64,000 nucleotides of DNA, taken from contig CM074518.1 in assembly GCA_037379345.1 (NCBI GenBank), positions 18,786,001 through 18,850,000 of the forward strand, written 5' to 3'. The position numbers are program-made. Numbering within the stretch: position 1 is the stretch's first letter; each line of letters starts with the position of its first letter. Positions 23,101 to 52,203 of this stretch are shown here, in pieces. The DNA comes from Perna viridis. Taxonomy: Eukaryota.

Positions 23101-26100
23101 AGTGTTTGTCATTCTGTCACCAGATCATAAAGACACATTTGTTGTTTTTTTTTAGTTAGAATGGAAGGTCCAAGCAAAGGAAAATGCAAAATATGCATAC
23201 CGGGCAATACAAAAACCATATCCAAACCTTTAATTAATTGTTAACATTTTTTCGTTGTACATGTACATACATTTTGAAAGTATGCTGACTTTATTATCCA
23301 TCTCAAAAGTGCTCTTATTTCTATAGAATGTTTCATTTAACACATACCAATAAAGTTTGAATATATAGAATCTACAACAATAATGAGTTGATTATGGAAT
23401 TTCTCACATCGAGTGAAATACATTTTATAGTTTTGATCGCGAGGCTTGCCGAGCTATTCAAACTATAAAATTTATTTCACGAGATGTGAGAAATGCATAT
23501 TCAACAAGCTTTGAGTGTAGATTCTGTTTCTCTAATTCCCTAAAAACGTCAAAAATACCTAAAAATGAAAAGCGCGCGAAAAGTTATGATTTCGATTCGT
23601 AGGAATCATGTTGGCGTCACACAAACGCAAACATTTCAAACAAAAGAAACCAGACGATTTCAAAGATTTTTTCACCTCAAGTCTTCCCGAGTCCCTTCAT
23701 GATTCTTATTCAAGAAAAGAATACACCACAGTCACCCCATTTTACTGAAATATAACTACAATGGCAATCGAGGCGATTCAAGATGGAGTCCAAGACAATC
23801 GATTTCTAAGCCGATCGAACTCTGAGAACAAAAAAGTCACTAGTGATGAGAACATTTTTTCCACACCGGTCAAGTGGTATGAAAATTGAAGCAAAATTAG
23901 ACAAATGTGGTTTTTTCATTGTGTAGTATTATGTTTTACTTTTTGACACCTCATAAAGTAGTAACATTGTTTTTTAACTCAGTTTTAAAATGAGATGGTT
24001 CTGTTCTTCTTAAACAACATTGTCCACTTTACCAAACAGAAAACAATTCTGTCACTAAAATTCCTAATTAAGACAAGGAATCGGTGTGAATTGGAATGTT
24101 GAAAAAGAGTCAACAGTCTTGTGATTAAGTGACATGTATAGAGAAATCAACGGAACCAGGATCATAACGTTAGAAACGGCATATCCTCACGTAAGGCGGA
24201 GTAGATTTCGTATTGGCTTGGTTAAGACTGAAGTCTAAAATTGTTTCGTTGAAAATGTAACAGATATTAAAAATAAATTTAGATTTTTATTATCTCGGCG
24301 TGTAAGAAAAATAAAGAAAACCAAGATTCTAGCAGAAATCAAAAGAATGTAATCCAGGGATAAAGACCAGACATGGAAAACAGACAACAAAGGACAAGAA
24401 CATCAAATTGCCAAGATAATACATGCAAAGTAACAACTAAAATTGTATCATACTAGTTTCGAATGACTTTTACACTGTATGTACATATTGCCTCATGCCA
24501 TTTTGTATAAGGTAAGTACCCCTGTATCATATAAATACAATTACCTAAGCGTTGTCTATCAGAAAAAAATAGCCTCAAACCGGTCGACTAGTTTGAAAGA
24601 GTAATCAAGGGAACCAAGGTTATAGCGGTAATCAAAAGAATGTAATCATGGGACAAAGACCAGACAAGGAAAAACAGACATACACAACAAAGAACATAAA
24701 GTAACTAAAATCATACATACAAAGTAAGACAATCAAATGAGCAACTCGGACTCCACTAAAAACTGGGAGCATGGACCAAGTGCACCGGTAGGGTAAGCGT
24801 TCATCGAATAATAAATTTCAAACAGAGAAAAAACTACTGGTTCTATCAATATTGTGGAAAATATTATGTGGTACTATTACTAATATTAAAACTGATGATT
24901 TAGAATTATTGAGTTTAAACAATGAATACATATCTACATGGCAACACAATATTCTGCTTTTAAGTTTACGTTAATGACCAATTAAAATTAAACATTGATG
25001 ATTTTATTTCTGACCAATACATGACGAAATGAAAATGCTTTCGTTCGATCAATTTTAACAGTTGTGCAGATAAATAAGCCGAAGAGCACAATGGTTGTCA
25101 ATAACATAATTCATTGATGAAGATAATAAAATATGGCTTGTTTAATGATTATTTAATCTGACCAACTTTCCGATTAAGCGGGAGTAAATATTTTGGTTGG
25201 GTTTCTAGAAACGACCCAATTTAGAGAAATCAATTTTAATTATGTTTCTACAATATGTATATGTTTTGGTTGCTGAAATGTCACTCCTTTCATTTTAAAG
25301 GATAAACAGTCATTCTTTCTCATATGAAACATAAATAAAACGAACAAAGTTTGCGTTGGTAATAATTAAACATAGGAATGTCATATTGACAGGGCATCTA
25401 AAGCTTCTTCGGGTATACCTCGAACATTAGACCCATAGTGCATTTCTATAGTTGTGTGGGCTTGCTCTGGATTGTAAAGTGCAAAAACTGGCCATAAAGG
25501 CTCCGTATTTTCAGAACAAACCAAGTTTACAAAATTAGCAATGACCTGCCTCGATTGCAAGTCAATGATAATCCAATGTCTCCTAGATGTATCTAACAAG
25601 CAACCAAAATCAAGTCTTGAATATGACCGAATGGGTGATGGTATTCGATCAGCGAACGGCATGTGATTCAGCATTTGACCATTGTGCCAACCATGTAGGC
25701 ACACACGTCCGCAGAGGTGACACCCACCGCCACTGACCACCCATGCAAATTGACTTCTATCATTCCGGAATCCTGCATCAATAGCATCATAACGAGCAAG
25801 ACCGAATTCGAACAATACATTCCTCCGTATTAGTTTCAGAATCTTATATTTTACGGTTATTTCCCAATAAAAAAGTCCAGGTCTTCGGAAGGATCTTGTC
25901 CCTAACGTTCCTGGATATAAACGGAGTCGTCTTGTACTATGGTCTCCTGGAGAAGACCCATAAATTGATTTGATAGCTTTTAGACCTATTTCAAGACTAT
26001 CACGTGACACGTCAATTGAAGGATGAGATACAGCAGCATCGAATGCAATGTTTATGCCTGCAAAAAAAAACAATAATAAACTTGAAACTAAACAGGTCAA

Positions 26101-50100: not shown

Positions 50101-52203
50101 TTTACAATCCAGAGCTAGTGCAGGTTTCTATAAATTTACTCTCTGGCATGAACATAGTCAGCGTTCCTCAGGAAGCCTTAGATGCATTAGTTACTACATG
50201 AGTACCGTTGCAAAATTTGAAGGCTGCTGCAGGCAACTATCTTTTCAAATCTAATTGATTTCGATGTTTTTGTGCATTTGGTTCTCTCTCTCTCTCTCTT
50301 TTTTCAAACCAATTTGTTAAAATGTGCCTGTTATCAAGTTTGATAGCTGGTATTAATTTATTGAGAGTTCCTCTCAGCTTTTTTCCAATAGTTATTTTAA
50401 TGATCTAGGTTGGCGATTTCCGAAGTCGTGGTGTTTTGTGGGTGTTTTTGTTTTCATGGCATAACACTTATTTCTCAATATGAATGTATTTATATTTCAA
50501 AATTAAAATTCCACAAAGAAGATAAGATGGTTTGATATTTCATTAATTTATTAATTGTGCTCCCATAAATTCAAAATTACTCAATATCATAATGGAGAAG
50601 GTGCATTAAATAATCAATTTCACAAGAAGGGTGACAACATCATGATCAATGACGTTTTTCTACACAATCAGTGCGAACTTAGTGTTACCGAACAAGACAA
50701 AATTCTCAGCAGTTTTTGGTTAAATTACCTATAATTGTGGAAACACAAAACATTAATTTCTCCTAATATTTATATATATTTTACTATGTTTTGAGCATTT
50801 TGAAATGTTATTGCAGTGATTTTTCGACCATATTCACGGCGTATTGCCCATTCACTTTTAAATACTGTCAATGGTAGCTAAACACAACTTTTCCGACTAT
50901 GCCGTATTATGTATTTATGTATTAATGTTCAAATGTCCTGAAATTTCAGTACAGTGGTAGCCATTTTTATTGGTGTCCATTAGAAAGAATGGTGTAGATA
51001 AAACGAAATTGGTTAATCAGTAGTAAAACAATACAGAAGATAGTGAAAATGAAAGGAATTAAATACACATAAAACGAAGAAGACTCTAACTAAAAAACAA
51101 CTGCGTCAAGTTCAAGATGAAAGTAAAAAGATACAGGGTAAAATATTTTGAAAATCCACCGTCTATTGTCTGTTAGTCAGAAACAGAAATCAATAAGATC
51201 TGGATATCGGAAATAAAACTTTTTATGCCGCGTATTTTTAATAACCTTAGTCCAAAAGCCTGTCTCTCAGGCAACCACGGCGCATAAAGAATTCAGTACA
51301 GTGGCTACTATTTCCTTTACAACTGAGAAATATAAACATCATATACAGGGGAAGCTGGTTATTACTGCATAAGAAAGGGAAATTTATGATTTTAAAATCA
51401 AAATCGTCTCGTTTATTTCTGTAATGAGATGCCGTCAAATTTGATGGAATATCTAACAAAAAATAGAAATGAAAATTTACGATACCAAATGCGATGAAAT
51501 CGTTCCCATTGGGTGTATTGATAAGAATATTTTTTTCTTGTCCCACCTTTCTTTCTTTCTTTTTTTTTCTTTTTTGGTTTGTATTTGTTTATTTTTTTAT
51601 AAACACGAATGATATAATTTGTTAAGTACACATACATGTATCTTATGGTTTGGCTACGCTGTTTCAGTGCGGACTTTATGCTGAAATAATGTTATTGGTT
51701 GTTTAGTAGTTATATATTCGTGGCGTGTTTAAAAATCTTACAGTTAAAATCTTATTCAAAGAGAAGTAACCCCCATTTTAATTGACATGACTCGGTGCTT
51801 TCATACTCCAGCAATGCTAGTGGTTGTCTGGCAAGCTATTTTCTTACTTGGCGCCATTGAGGATCGTATTTCTCTTACGTTGTAGGGGTAAGAGCTTTCA
51901 TAGCAATTAAGCTCTATTTATGATGAGAATGTCCCTTATCTTTATAAAGATACTCATTGCCCAAAGATAATTTATTTGTAAAAAAATGACGTTTGAACAT
52001 TTAAAGTCTACCACACTGAAGCGGTCCACATAACGAATGAAACAGGAACAAAATTGTTCCCATTTTTTGCAAGGAATGGACGTTGTTTATAATTATTCAG
52101 TTAATTCGGTAATATAAAAATTTCGGAGAAGCTTGTTGAATTTACACAGATTATTTACCACTATCAATTCGGCAAAGAAACGTATCTATATAATATAGTA
52201 TAC

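What the first reader, a model, noticed from the sequence alone, without database searches (positions are those of the whole stretch)
25381..50201. Three-gene TRIM cluster with an unusual RBCC-filamin-SPRY architecture
Seen: genes B and C join RING, two B-boxes and a coiled coil to a filamin-type Ig exon and then a divergent B30.2/PRY-SPRY-like exon; gene A shares the last two. Established: in the standard TRIM classes filamin is followed by NHL repeats (TRIM2/3/71) or stands alone (TRIM45), while PRY-SPRY TRIMs have either no intervening domain or COS/FN3. Inference: this is a lineage-specific, domain-shuffled TRIM subfamily expanded in tandem, plausibly innate-immune sensor/E3 ligases.
Basis: partly seen in the sequence, partly recalled or inferred. 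Interest (0 to 1): 0.72.

Follow-up and report, generated by a model that had tools for sequence, protein, structure and literature searches.

The report
Mussel TRIM ligases with filamin plus SPRY
Three neighbouring mussel-type genes encode TRIM ubiquitin-ligase relatives whose tail joins a filamin domain to a hidden SPRY domain, a combination absent from the human TRIM classes but conserved across bivalves.

Summary
Genes B (36288-40606, +) and C (45699-50201, +) each have one exon carrying RING, B-box1, B-box2 and coiled coil. A filamin Ig domain follows, split over two exons, then short linker exons, then one large last exon. Gene A (34236-25381, -) has only the filamin, a longer linker and the last exon.

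Pfam finds nothing in the last exon. A 30-sequence profile matches solved PRY-SPRY/B30.2 domains (MID1, E 2.4e-10). The AlphaFold model (pLDDT 92.7) matches TRIM65, TRIM7, TRIM25 and MID2 PRY-SPRY.

The architecture is not special to this genome. Named orthologues exist in eight bivalve species, labelled TRIM2_3, TRIM45-like or TRIM71-like. All 24 named relatives of 26 looked up are molluscs.

B and C are old duplicates: dS is at least 1 and only exons still align. They are under purifying selection (dN/dS 0.09-0.27), and the SPRY exon is their best-conserved large exon. That argues against an arms-race immune sensor.

Best reading: conserved dimeric TRIM E3 ligases with a TRIM2/3/45/71-like core and a B30.2 substrate-binding domain, plus one RING-less paralogue. 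This is a new variant of a known kind, of modest interest.

The parts
36288..37379 (+). Gene B exon 1: ATG, RING (C3HC4), B-box1, B-box2 and coiled coil; donor in phase 0
   Evidence: Splice context. Pfam RING and B-box hits. Zinc ligands invariant between B and C. TRIM3 B-box2/coiled coil 1.7e-23 and TRIM28 RBCC 2e-20. 77.7% identical to P0114 residues 1-364.
37733..37913 (+). Gene B exon 2: spacer helix and the first strands of the filamin Ig domain; phase 0 in, phase 1 out
   Evidence: Splice context. 50.8% identical to P0114 residues 363-425. In the P0114 model those residues hold strands 395-398 and 407-413. No Pfam hit on its own.
38162..38386 (+). Gene B exon 3: C-terminal two thirds of the filamin Ig domain; phase 1 in and out
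   Evidence: Pfam Filamin 1.2e-4, 23.3 bits, below the cut-off. Three-exon profile matches filamin-C at 1.4e-7. Aligns with gene C at the DNA level.
39031..39096 (+). Gene B tentative linker exon (66 nt, phase 1 in and out)
   Evidence: AG and GT sites and an open frame read. Only a 6-residue match to P0114 plus a resemblance by eye. Not conserved in gene C. Tentative.
39468..39524 (+). Gene B mini-exon (57 nt, phase 1 in and out) ending in ...GDVN(C); N-terminal extension of the B30.2 domain
   Evidence: 20 of 20 residues identical to P0114 residues 520-539. 78% DNA identity to the gene C copy inside otherwise unalignable introns. In the P0114 model, strands 532-534 and 537-539 have pLDDT of 86 or more.
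39921..40606 (+). Gene B last exon: PRY-SPRY/B30.2 domain and stop codon
   Evidence: No Pfam hit. Profile matches MID1, BTN3A1 and TRIM21 B30.2. AF2 pLDDT 92.7. Foldseek matches TRIM65, TRIM7, TRIM25 and MID2 PRY-SPRY at E about 1e-9.
45699..46910 (+). Gene C exon 1: RBCC, with a 40-residue N-terminal insert relative to gene B
   Evidence: 74% DNA identity to gene B exon 1.
47563..47710 (+). Gene C exon 2: start of the filamin domain
   Evidence: Splice context. 41.9% identical to P0114 residues 364-425. 43% identical to the gene B exon.
47987..48211 (+). Gene C exon 3: remainder of the filamin domain
   Evidence: No Pfam Filamin hit at E<=1. 53% identical to the gene B exon. Part of the profile that matches filamin-C.
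48896..48952 (+). Gene C mini-exon (57 nt), homologous to the gene B mini-exon
   Evidence: 75% identical to P0114 residues 520-539. It gave the top hit in the tblastx comparison of the B and C introns; the only other hit below E=1 overlaps it in another frame.
49516..50201 (+). Gene C last exon: PRY-SPRY/B30.2 domain and stop codon
   Evidence: 77-78% identical to the gene B exon. 79% DNA identity.
33984..34236 (-). Gene A first recognisable exon: start of the filamin domain. Candidate ATG at 34182; an acceptor at 34236 is also possible. 5' end unresolved.
   Evidence: Splice context. 60% identical to P0118 residues 30-78. No RBCC exon in the 2 kb up to gene B.
32888..33100 (-). Gene A filamin exon
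   Evidence: Pfam Filamin 7.9e-6, 27.1 bits, above the 26.9 cut-off. 70.8% identical to P0118.
27290..32250 (-). Gene A linker: about 7 short exons. tblastn spans: 32250-32197, 31369-31325, 31100-31020, 30415-30374, 29807-29760, 28676-28626 and 27331-27290 (the DVNC mini-exon).
   Evidence: Matches are colinear with residues 141-256 of the 480-aa M. edulis protein P0118, at 50-86% identity. Exact exon boundaries were not determined.
25381..26057 (-). Gene A last exon: PRY-SPRY/B30.2 domain and stop codon
   Evidence: 45% identical to gene B. 71% identical to P0118, and 97.5-99.5% identical to two unnamed ORFs.

Best explanation
Genes B and C encode TRIM-family RING E3 ubiquitin ligases of a bivalve-wide type.

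Layout. The N-terminal single-exon RING, B-box1, B-box2 and coiled-coil module and the filamin Ig domain resemble the TRIM2/3/45/71 group. In place of NHL repeats there is a disordered linker of about 40 residues, then a PRY-SPRY (B30.2) domain encoded by a mini-exon plus one large exon.

Inferred mechanism, by analogy with solved TRIMs. The coiled coil forms an antiparallel dimer, the RING recruits a charged E2, and the B30.2 domain, possibly together with the filamin domain, binds the substrate.

Gene A is a mytilid-lineage paralogue that has lost the RBCC exon. It keeps the filamin, a longer linker and the B30.2 domain. It cannot ligate ubiquitin itself and may act as an adaptor or as a competitor for the same ligand; this last point is speculative.

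Shown: domain identities, gene structure, conservation and selection regime. Inferred: E3 activity, dimerisation and substrate binding through the B30.2 domain.
For: - Intact zinc-ligand sets and RBCC matches.
- Filamin matches, and a 7-strand Ig at residues 395-488 in the AF2 model of the M. coruscus orthologue P0114 (pLDDT 78.9 overall).
- B30.2 shown by profile: 83 PDB sequences at E<=1, and all 60 shown are B30.2 proteins.
- B30.2 shown by fold: pLDDT 92.7, TM 0.65-0.76 normalised to the target.
- Canonical GT-AG sites and matching phases (0, then 1 throughout) in all three genes.
- The same joined architecture in independently annotated proteins. Of the 10 hits, 8 are named, all bivalve. 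By Pfam, 14 of 16 long homologues have Filamin and 16 of 16 have RING and B-box.
- Purifying selection, dN/dS 0.09-0.27.
- DNA similarity between the B and C loci confined to exons.
- The gene A orthologue in M. edulis is likewise RBCC-less, at 480 aa.
Against: - There are no transcript data for this genome, so exon joins, gene A's 5' end and the tentative linker exon 39031-39096 are unverified.
- No biochemical evidence for E3 activity or for any ligand.
- Pfam domain scores in the window's own exons are mostly below the gathering cut-offs.
- The relationship of the RBCC to TRIM2/3/45/71 rests on PDB sequence matches and on database names, not on a phylogeny that includes vertebrate TRIMs.
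- The full-length fold was made on a public orthologue, not on the window's own spliced proteins.
Confidence: 0.72

Rival explanations
1. The cluster is a fast-evolving innate-immune sensor or restriction-factor family, like TRIM5 or fish finTRIMs, whose SPRY loops track pathogens.
For: - Many vertebrate RBCC-B30.2 proteins are immune effectors (established knowledge).
- The genes are tandem duplicates.
- Between B and C, non-synonymous change peaks in two windows. One is residues 11-50 (pN 0.22), which covers the only low-confidence segment of the model (residues 31-40, pLDDT 57). The other is residues 121-150 (pN 0.16-0.17).
- The B30.2 family has at least 109 cluster representatives; all 24 that carry a name, of 26 looked up, are molluscan.
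Against: - dN/dS in the SPRY exon is 0.12 overall.
- The SPRY exon (78% identity) is better conserved than the RBCC (67-69%) between B and C, and against P0002, P0115 and P0117, though only equal against P0114.
- One orthologue clade spans Protobranchia, Palaeoheterodonta, Imparidentia and Pteriomorphia.
- The duplicates are old (dS at least 1).
- Pairwise averages cannot exclude a few positively selected sites.
Confidence: 0.15
2. The architecture is a gene-model artefact: the SPRY exon, or the filamin plus SPRY exons as in gene A, form a separate transcription unit downstream of an RBCC-only or RBCC-filamin gene.
For: - No RNA evidence here.
- Gene A and M. edulis P0118 show that a filamin-SPRY unit can exist without an RBCC.
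- 64 of the 109 database relatives show the SPRY domain alone and are under 400 aa, though these may be fragments.
Against: - Phase-compatible canonical splice sites in B and C.
- No conserved ATG at the start of the last exon in the three copies.
- A conserved phase 1-1 mini-exon lies just upstream.
- Joined models were annotated independently in eight named bivalve species, several labelled as TRIM-like by NCBI.
Confidence: 0.05
3. Gene A is a decaying partial duplicate (a pseudogene) rather than a functional RING-less paralogue.
For: - It lacks the RBCC exon.
- Its clade sits on a long stem branch (0.48) in the SPRY tree.
- Its start codon is unresolved.
Against: - All recognised exons have open frames.
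- About 10 colinear exons match the M. edulis protein at 50-86% identity.
- Two near-identical ORFs (97.5% and 99.5%) exist in independent unnamed contigs.
Confidence: 0.1

Closest known systems
TRIM class VII / X (TRIM2, TRIM3, TRIM71/LIN-41; TRIM45): subfamily C of Marin 2012
   Same: RING, B-box1, B-box2 and coiled coil followed by one filamin Ig domain. The best RBCC sequence match among solved structures is TRIM3 (1.7e-23). Databases name the orthologues TRIM2_3, TRIM71-like and TRIM45-like.
   Different: No NHL repeats: none appear among the families hit in the exons or in 16 homologues. Unlike TRIM45, a linker and a full B30.2 domain follow the filamin domain.
TRIM class IV (RBCC-PRY-SPRY, e.g. 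TRIM21, TRIM25, TRIM65, TRIM72) and class I (MID1/MID2)
   Same: C-terminal PRY-SPRY fold. The B30.2 domain is encoded almost entirely by one large terminal exon. The best structural and profile matches are TRIM65, TRIM7, TRIM25, MID1 and MID2. The full-length orthologue model matches TRIM72.
   Different: A filamin Ig domain and a disordered linker lie between the coiled coil and the B30.2 domain. B-box1 is present. There is no COS/FN3. The B30.2 sequence is too divergent for Pfam SPRY or PRY (0 of 3 window copies; at E<=0.01, 2 of 16 homologues hit SPRY and 1 of 16 PRY).
RING-less TRIM-like proteins (incomplete tripartite motifs; Sardiello 2008, Marin 2012)
   Same: Gene A keeps the C-terminal recognition part of its TRIM paralogues but lacks the RING, B-boxes and coiled coil. 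The reviews explain such TRIM-like genes as duplication followed by domain loss (passages of PMC3503706).
   Different: Gene A lacks the entire RBCC, not just the RING or the B-boxes. It carries a much longer multi-exon linker.

Membership tests
TRIM/RBCC family | N-terminal C3HC4 RING with all eight zinc ligands | tested here: met
   C-x2-C-x15-C-x-H-x2-C-x2-C-x11-C-x2-C is invariant between B and C and conserved in 16 homologues. Pfam RING hits are weak, 19-25 bits. Not met for gene A, which has no such exon.
TRIM/RBCC family | B-box1 and B-box2 after the RING, followed by a coiled coil | tested here: met
   Two zf-B_box stretches in each exon 1. TRIM3 B-box2/coiled-coil match over residues 177-363. 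Helices 218-328 and 331-350 in the orthologue model.
TRIM/RBCC family | E3 ubiquitin-ligase activity | not testable with these tools
   Needs an in vitro ubiquitination assay.
TRIM class VII (TRIM2/3/71) | Filamin Ig domain after the coiled coil | tested here: met
   Pfam Filamin in the A and B exons and in 14 of 16 homologues. Profile matches filamin-C at 1.4e-7. 7-strand Ig in the model.
TRIM class VII (TRIM2/3/71) | NHL repeats at the C-terminus | tested here: not met
   No NHL family among the Pfam hits of the exons or among the 22 families hit by 16 homologues. The C-terminus is a B30.2 domain.
TRIM class X (TRIM45) | RBCC-filamin with no further C-terminal domain | tested here: not met
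   A domain of about 230 residues follows the filamin domain. Class definition as quoted in PMC3503706 and recalled from Ozato 2008.
TRIM class IV | PRY-SPRY directly after the coiled coil, with no intervening domain | tested here: not met
   A filamin domain and a linker intervene.
B30.2 / PRY-SPRY domain | Bent beta-sandwich fold superposable on solved PRY-SPRY domains | tested here: met
   AF2 pLDDT 92.7. Foldseek against PDB: TRIM65, TRIM7, TRIM25, MID2 and BTN3A1 at E 6e-10 to 1e-8, target-normalised TM mostly 0.65-0.76. 467 of at least 500 matches have E<=0.001.
B30.2 / PRY-SPRY domain | Sequence match to Pfam SPRY (PF00622) and PRY (PF13765) at the gathering score | tested here: not met
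   0 of 3 window copies hit at E<=1. Among 30 aligned family members, 9 hit SPRY and 3 hit PRY at E<=0.1. Homology is nevertheless shown by the profile match to MID1 B30.2 at 2.4e-10.

The most novel reading that the evidence does not exclude
RBCC-filamin-B30.2 is a distinct TRIM class, as old as crown bivalves, in which a B30.2 domain rather than an NHL propeller sits on a TRIM2/3/45/71-type scaffold.

Standard domain annotation does not detect its B30.2, so molluscan genomes would hold a large unrecognised B30.2-TRIM repertoire: at least 109 clusters at the 50% level.

In mussels, a RING-less filamin-B30.2 paralogue placed head-to-head with a full-length copy would act as a natural decoy or adaptor that tunes the ligase's access to a shared, conserved ligand.
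Probability: 0.25. Interest if true: 0.5.

Novelty: new variant of a known kind. Interest (0 to 1): 0.33.

Why it matters
The standard TRIM classes come mainly from vertebrates, flies and worms. [quoted passage not shown]

This cluster shows a conserved lophotrochozoan TRIM type that pairs the old filamin-bearing scaffold with a B30.2 domain. Routine annotation labels it TRIM45-like, TRIM71-like or TRIM2_3 because Pfam misses the B30.2 domain.

Recognising it would correct mollusc TRIM annotation. It also adds a data point on how TRIM recognition modules are exchanged. It does not open a new mechanism, and the evolutionary signature points to a conserved cellular role rather than an immune arms race.

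Tried and rejected
- **First gene model.** My first 4-exon models for B and C were phase-compatible but incomplete. tblastn with the M. coruscus orthologue revealed a conserved mini-exon, so I replaced them.
- **Rejected exon candidate.** A 6-residue match at 38574-38591 has no usable splice sites.
- **Word-indexed protein searches.** The search with exon 1 (3 hits among 1543 candidates) and the search with the full-length profile (6 hits among 5753 candidates) added nothing on distant or non-molluscan relatives. Absence outside Mollusca is therefore not shown.
- **Protein Atlas.** It returned only the protein's own mollusc cluster, then vertebrate PRY-SPRY clusters. This is consistent but not independent.
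- **Rfam.** No RNA family in the window.
- **Literature.** Seven full-text searches found no paper describing RBCC-filamin-SPRY. One search (TRIM + filamin + SPRY + bivalve) returned 0 papers. In one search none of the 15 listed papers contained 'SPRY'.
- **Papers read.** I read passages only of PMC3503706, PMC2533329 and PMC3137616; none mentions this combination. Their supplementary tables of invertebrate TRIMs were closed and could hold such proteins. Short & Cox 2006 and Ozato 2008 were not read; their class definitions are recalled or taken from citations.
- **Scatter of filamin in the tree.** Filamin-bearing proteins are scattered in the SPRY tree (13 changes, at least 10 forced by starred branches). 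I do not interpret this as gains or losses. The filamin HMM was home-made from close relatives, and many rows are fragments.
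Full report
**What the window is**

The window is AT-rich (28-39% G+C per 2 kb) and has no N. It carries split genes with canonical GT-AG introns. The nearest named relatives of the genes studied are bivalve proteins. They include Mytilus coruscus 'TRIM2_3' at 78% identity and a Mytilus edulis uncharacterised protein at 71%. The window is therefore mussel-like and not human. I did not try to name the species or any sample.

**Check of the observation**

- *RBCC exons.* The exon-1 ORFs of genes B and C are 67% identical. They share every zinc ligand of a C3HC4 RING, a B-box1 and a B-box2. 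Pfam gives weak RING hits and two B-box stretches in each. Against solved structures, gene B's exon 1 matches the TRIM3 B-box2/coiled coil (1.7e-23), the TRIM28 RBCC (2e-20), and the PML, TRIM56 and TRIM2 RINGs.
- *Filamin exons.* Pfam Filamin hits gene A's exon (7.9e-6, 27.1 bits against a cut-off of 26.9) and gene B's (1.2e-4, below cut-off), but not gene C's. The three exons are 50-53% identical. Their joint profile matches filamin-C (1.4e-7) and the Dictyostelium gelation factor.
- *Last exons.* The three copies are 45-78% identical. None has a Pfam hit even at E<=1.
- *Gene A.* tblastn of the M. coruscus orthologue finds RBCC matches only in B and C, so gene A has no RBCC exon.

**Is the last exon a B30.2 domain?**

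phmmer of gene B's last exon against 1.84 billion representatives found 109 proteins at E<=1e-3. Of these, 49 were at E<=1e-10 and 8 at E<=1e-30.

I aligned the three window copies with 27 domain-length hits (A5).

- The profile of A5 matched 83 distinct PDB sequences at E<=1. All 60 shown are B30.2/PRY-SPRY proteins: MID1 at 2.4e-10, then BTN3A1/3, MID2, TRIM21, BTN2A1, TRIM25, pyrin and TRIM5.
- Scanned singly, 9 of the 30 members hit Pfam SPRY and 3 of 30 hit PRY at E<=0.1. The window copy scanned first hit nothing.
- AlphaFold2 with A5 gave a confident beta-sandwich: mean pLDDT 92.7, pTM 0.89, with one weak segment at residues 31-40.
- Foldseek against the PDB returned TRIM65, TRIM7, RFPL1-like, TRIM25, MID2, BTN3A1 and pyrin PRY-SPRY domains, at E 6e-10 to 1e-8 and target-normalised TM mostly 0.65-0.76.

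**Gene structure**

I searched exon by exon and did not join exons into spliced proteins. That joined step was left out.

Splice-site reading gave four phase-compatible exons for B and for C. tblastn of the M. coruscus protein P0114 then revealed an extra 20-residue match, 100% identical, at 39467-39526, and its gene C counterpart (75%) at 48895-48954.

This is a 57-nt mini-exon, phase 1 in and out, flanked by AG and GTAAGT. It gave the top hit in a tblastx comparison of the B and C introns (E 8e-9); the only other hit below E=1 overlaps it in another frame. It is one of only four blastn matches between the two loci; the others are exon 1, exon 3 and the last exon.

A second linker exon in B (39031-39096) has good splice sites but only a faint likeness to P0114. 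It is tentative.

| Gene | Strand | Exons | Length |
|---|---|---|---|
| B | + | 36288-37379, 37733-37913, 38162-38386, (39031-39096), 39468-39524, 39921-40606 | about 768 aa with the tentative exon |
| C | + | 45699-46910, 47563-47710, 47987-48211, 48896-48952, 49516-50201 | about 775 aa |
| A | - | 34236-33984, 33100-32888, about seven short linker exons, 26057-25381 | 5' end unresolved |

Gene A's linker exons are colinear with residues 141-256 of the 480-aa M. edulis protein P0118. Its start is unresolved: a candidate ATG lies at 34182.

Every junction after exon 2 is phase 1. That is what exon shuffling of modules would leave. The link between symmetric phases and shuffling is recalled general knowledge, not tested here.

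**Full-length picture**

Mean pLDDT was 78.9. The model shows:

- the RING and two B-boxes;
- helices at 218-328 and 331-350, the coiled coil;
- seven beta-strands at 395-488, the filamin Ig (block pLDDT 81-91), whose first two strands fall in the part encoded by exon 2;
- a disordered stretch at 491-529;
- the B30.2 domain from about residue 530.

Strands 532-534 and 537-539 come from the mini-exon. This explains why that exon is so well conserved. Foldseek of the whole model puts full-length TRIM72 first, then the same PRY-SPRY domains.

**How widespread is it?**

The word-indexed search with the last exon, restricted to longer proteins, gave 10 hits among 1093 candidates. Eight are named and all are bivalve: M. 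coruscus, Saccostrea echinata, Solemya velum, Potamilus streckersoni, M. edulis, Mactra antiquata, Dreissena polymorpha and Mya arenaria. Seven of those eight are 739-764 aa; the M. edulis protein has 480 aa. They are 49-78% identical and variously named TRIM2_3, TRIM71-like, TRIM45-like or hypothetical.

Cluster look-ups of 26 representatives gave names for 24. All 24 are molluscs, either bivalves or the gastropods Haliotis and Gigantopelta.

Pfam on the 16 long homologues of A6 gave B-box 16/16, zf-C3HC4 16/16, Filamin 14/16, SPRY 2/16, PRY 1/16 and no NHL.

I also built HMMs from A6 and scanned the 109 hits:

| Architecture | Count of 109 |
|---|---|
| RING-Bbox-CC-Filamin-SPRY | 9 |
| Filamin-SPRY with a partial or absent RBCC | 5 |
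| RBCC-type N-terminus without detectable filamin | 24 |
| SPRY only | 64 |
| SPRY-SPRY | 5 |
| No match | 2 |

Many of the SPRY-only rows are short and are probably fragments.

**Tree of the B30.2 domain**

The tree has 106 rows, built by the quick IQ-TREE method with SH-aLRT support only. Domain hits covering fewer than 170 profile positions or with E above 1e-5 were dropped.

- One clade of 15 rows (support 99) contains the three window genes and the named orthologues from Solemya, Potamilus, Mactra, Dreissena, Mya, Saccostrea and Mytilus. Every full-length row in it is RBCC-filamin-SPRY.
- Inside it, a mytilid group of 7 rows (support 96) splits into an A-type group (win_A, P0003, M. edulis P0118; support 100; stem branch 0.48) and a B/C-type group (support 88, unstarred).
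- The architecture therefore predates the split of the bivalve lineages sampled, including the protobranch Solemya. The three-gene cluster arose by duplication in the mussel lineage after its split from oysters.
- The order of the B/C duplication relative to the Mytilus split is unresolved. Exons 1-3 favour (B, P0114) with C outside. The SPRY exon puts B and C together. That difference could reflect rate differences or gene conversion.

**Selection**

Nei-Gojobori estimates, exon by exon, for B against C:

| Exon | dN/dS | dS |
|---|---|---|
| RBCC | 0.09 | 1.9 |
| Filamin (two exons) | 0.13 and 0.27 | 3.0 and 1.1 |
| Mini-exon | 0.13 | 1.4 |
| B30.2 | 0.12 | 1.0 |

dS is saturated, so the ratios are rough. 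The direction, strong purifying selection, is clear. It agrees with DNA similarity being confined to exons.

The B30.2 exon is the best conserved large exon between the paralogues, at 78% against 67-69% for the RBCC exon. It is also better conserved than the RBCC against three of the four full-length orthologues compared: 59% against 47% for Solemya P0002, 63% against 52% for Saccostrea P0115, and 54% against 45% for the unnamed P0117. Against M. coruscus P0114 the two are about equal, 78.4% against 77.7%.

Non-synonymous change peaks in two windows. One is residues 11-50 (pN 0.22), which overlaps the low-confidence segment at residues 31-40. The other is residues 121-150 (pN 0.16-0.17). In solved PRY-SPRY domains such variable loops form the binding face (recalled), so the paralogues may differ somewhat in specificity.

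**Mechanism**

Shown: domain identities and order, intact zinc ligands, conservation.

Inferred from the TRIM family in general:

- antiparallel coiled-coil dimer;
- RING-E2 catalysis;
- substrate capture by the B30.2 domain, with the filamin Ig domain as a second contact or a spacer.

Gene A cannot be a ligase. I read it as an adaptor or competitor, with low confidence.

**Comparison with what is known**

As quoted in PMC3503706 (passages read) and recalled from Short & Cox 2006 and Ozato 2008, the standard classes place filamin before NHL (class VII) or alone (TRIM45, class X). They place PRY-SPRY directly after the coiled coil (class IV) or after COS-FN3 (class I).

Sardiello 2008 (PMC2533329, passages) found the RBCC-SPRY groups absent from the fly, worm and Ciona. 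It called the filamin-related subgroup the only invertebrate TRIM expansion, and noted that the tripartite motif is often encoded by one exon, as here.

Seven literature searches found no description of RBCC-filamin-SPRY. The proteins themselves are already in public databases, with names that do not mention a SPRY/B30.2 domain.

**Verdict**

- The feature is real and the architecture is non-canonical.
- It is conserved across bivalves and is not a private innovation of this genome.
- The immune-sensor idea is unsupported.
- This is a new variant of a known kind, of modest interest (0.33).

**What stayed unchecked**

- Transcripts.
- Non-molluscan lophotrochozoans.
- A phylogeny with vertebrate TRIMs.
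- Any biochemistry.
- The closed collections metagenome contigs and viral contigs.

Noticed in passing
window 2332-4612 (+): A run of ORFs from a retroelement. ORF 2585-3076 hits Pfam DUF1759 (3.1e-23), a domain I recall as typical of Bel/Pao-type retrotransposon Gag. The next ORF (3060-3452) is cysteine-rich with CCHC-like spacing, and a further ORF lies at 4109-4612. The frames are interrupted, so the element is probably degraded.
   Followed up: partly
window 8206-11166 (-): Exons of an ionotropic glutamate receptor-like gene. Pfam hits: Lig_chan-Glu_bd 9.7e-17 and Lig_chan in 10549-11166, and Lig_chan 5.2e-11 in 9599-9871.
   Followed up: partly
window 61396-62457 (+): A large exon with a protein kinase domain (Pkinase 2e-31). 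By eye the sequence resembles homeodomain-interacting protein kinases (recalled, not tested).
   Followed up: partly
window 774-1177, 7411-7804, 13354-13605, 24593-24800, 33110-33259; also 27959-28252 / 33442-33763: Interspersed repeat copies of 150-400 bp at 72-90% identity, in both orientations. Two copies lie inside introns of gene A, and one ends 10 bp from the acceptor of its filamin exon.
   Followed up: no
window 40262-40333 (gene B last exon) and the same positions in genes A and C: A C-x2-C-x3-C motif with nearby histidines (…GCHxCGKVCLQTWHN…) is invariant in the three paralogues. It is largely conserved in the orthologues (consensus). It sits at a beta-hairpin turn of the B30.2 model.
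   Followed up: no
window 34237-36287: Genes A and B are head-to-head with about 2 kb between gene A's first recognisable exon and gene B's ATG. This may be a shared bidirectional promoter. It was not analysed.
   Followed up: no
window 39921-40606 vs 49516-50201, compared with 36288-37379 vs 45699-46910: B and C are relatively closer in the 3' exons (SPRY exon: 78% amino-acid identity, dS 1.0) than in exon 1 (67-69%, dS 1.9). The M. coruscus orthologue, by contrast, is equally close to B in both. This could be a trace of gene conversion or of unequal rates. dS is saturated, so it is not resolved.
   Followed up: partly
window 13983-14267: A simple dinucleotide-type repeat, read as a (YI)n run in the ORF translation.
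   Followed up: no
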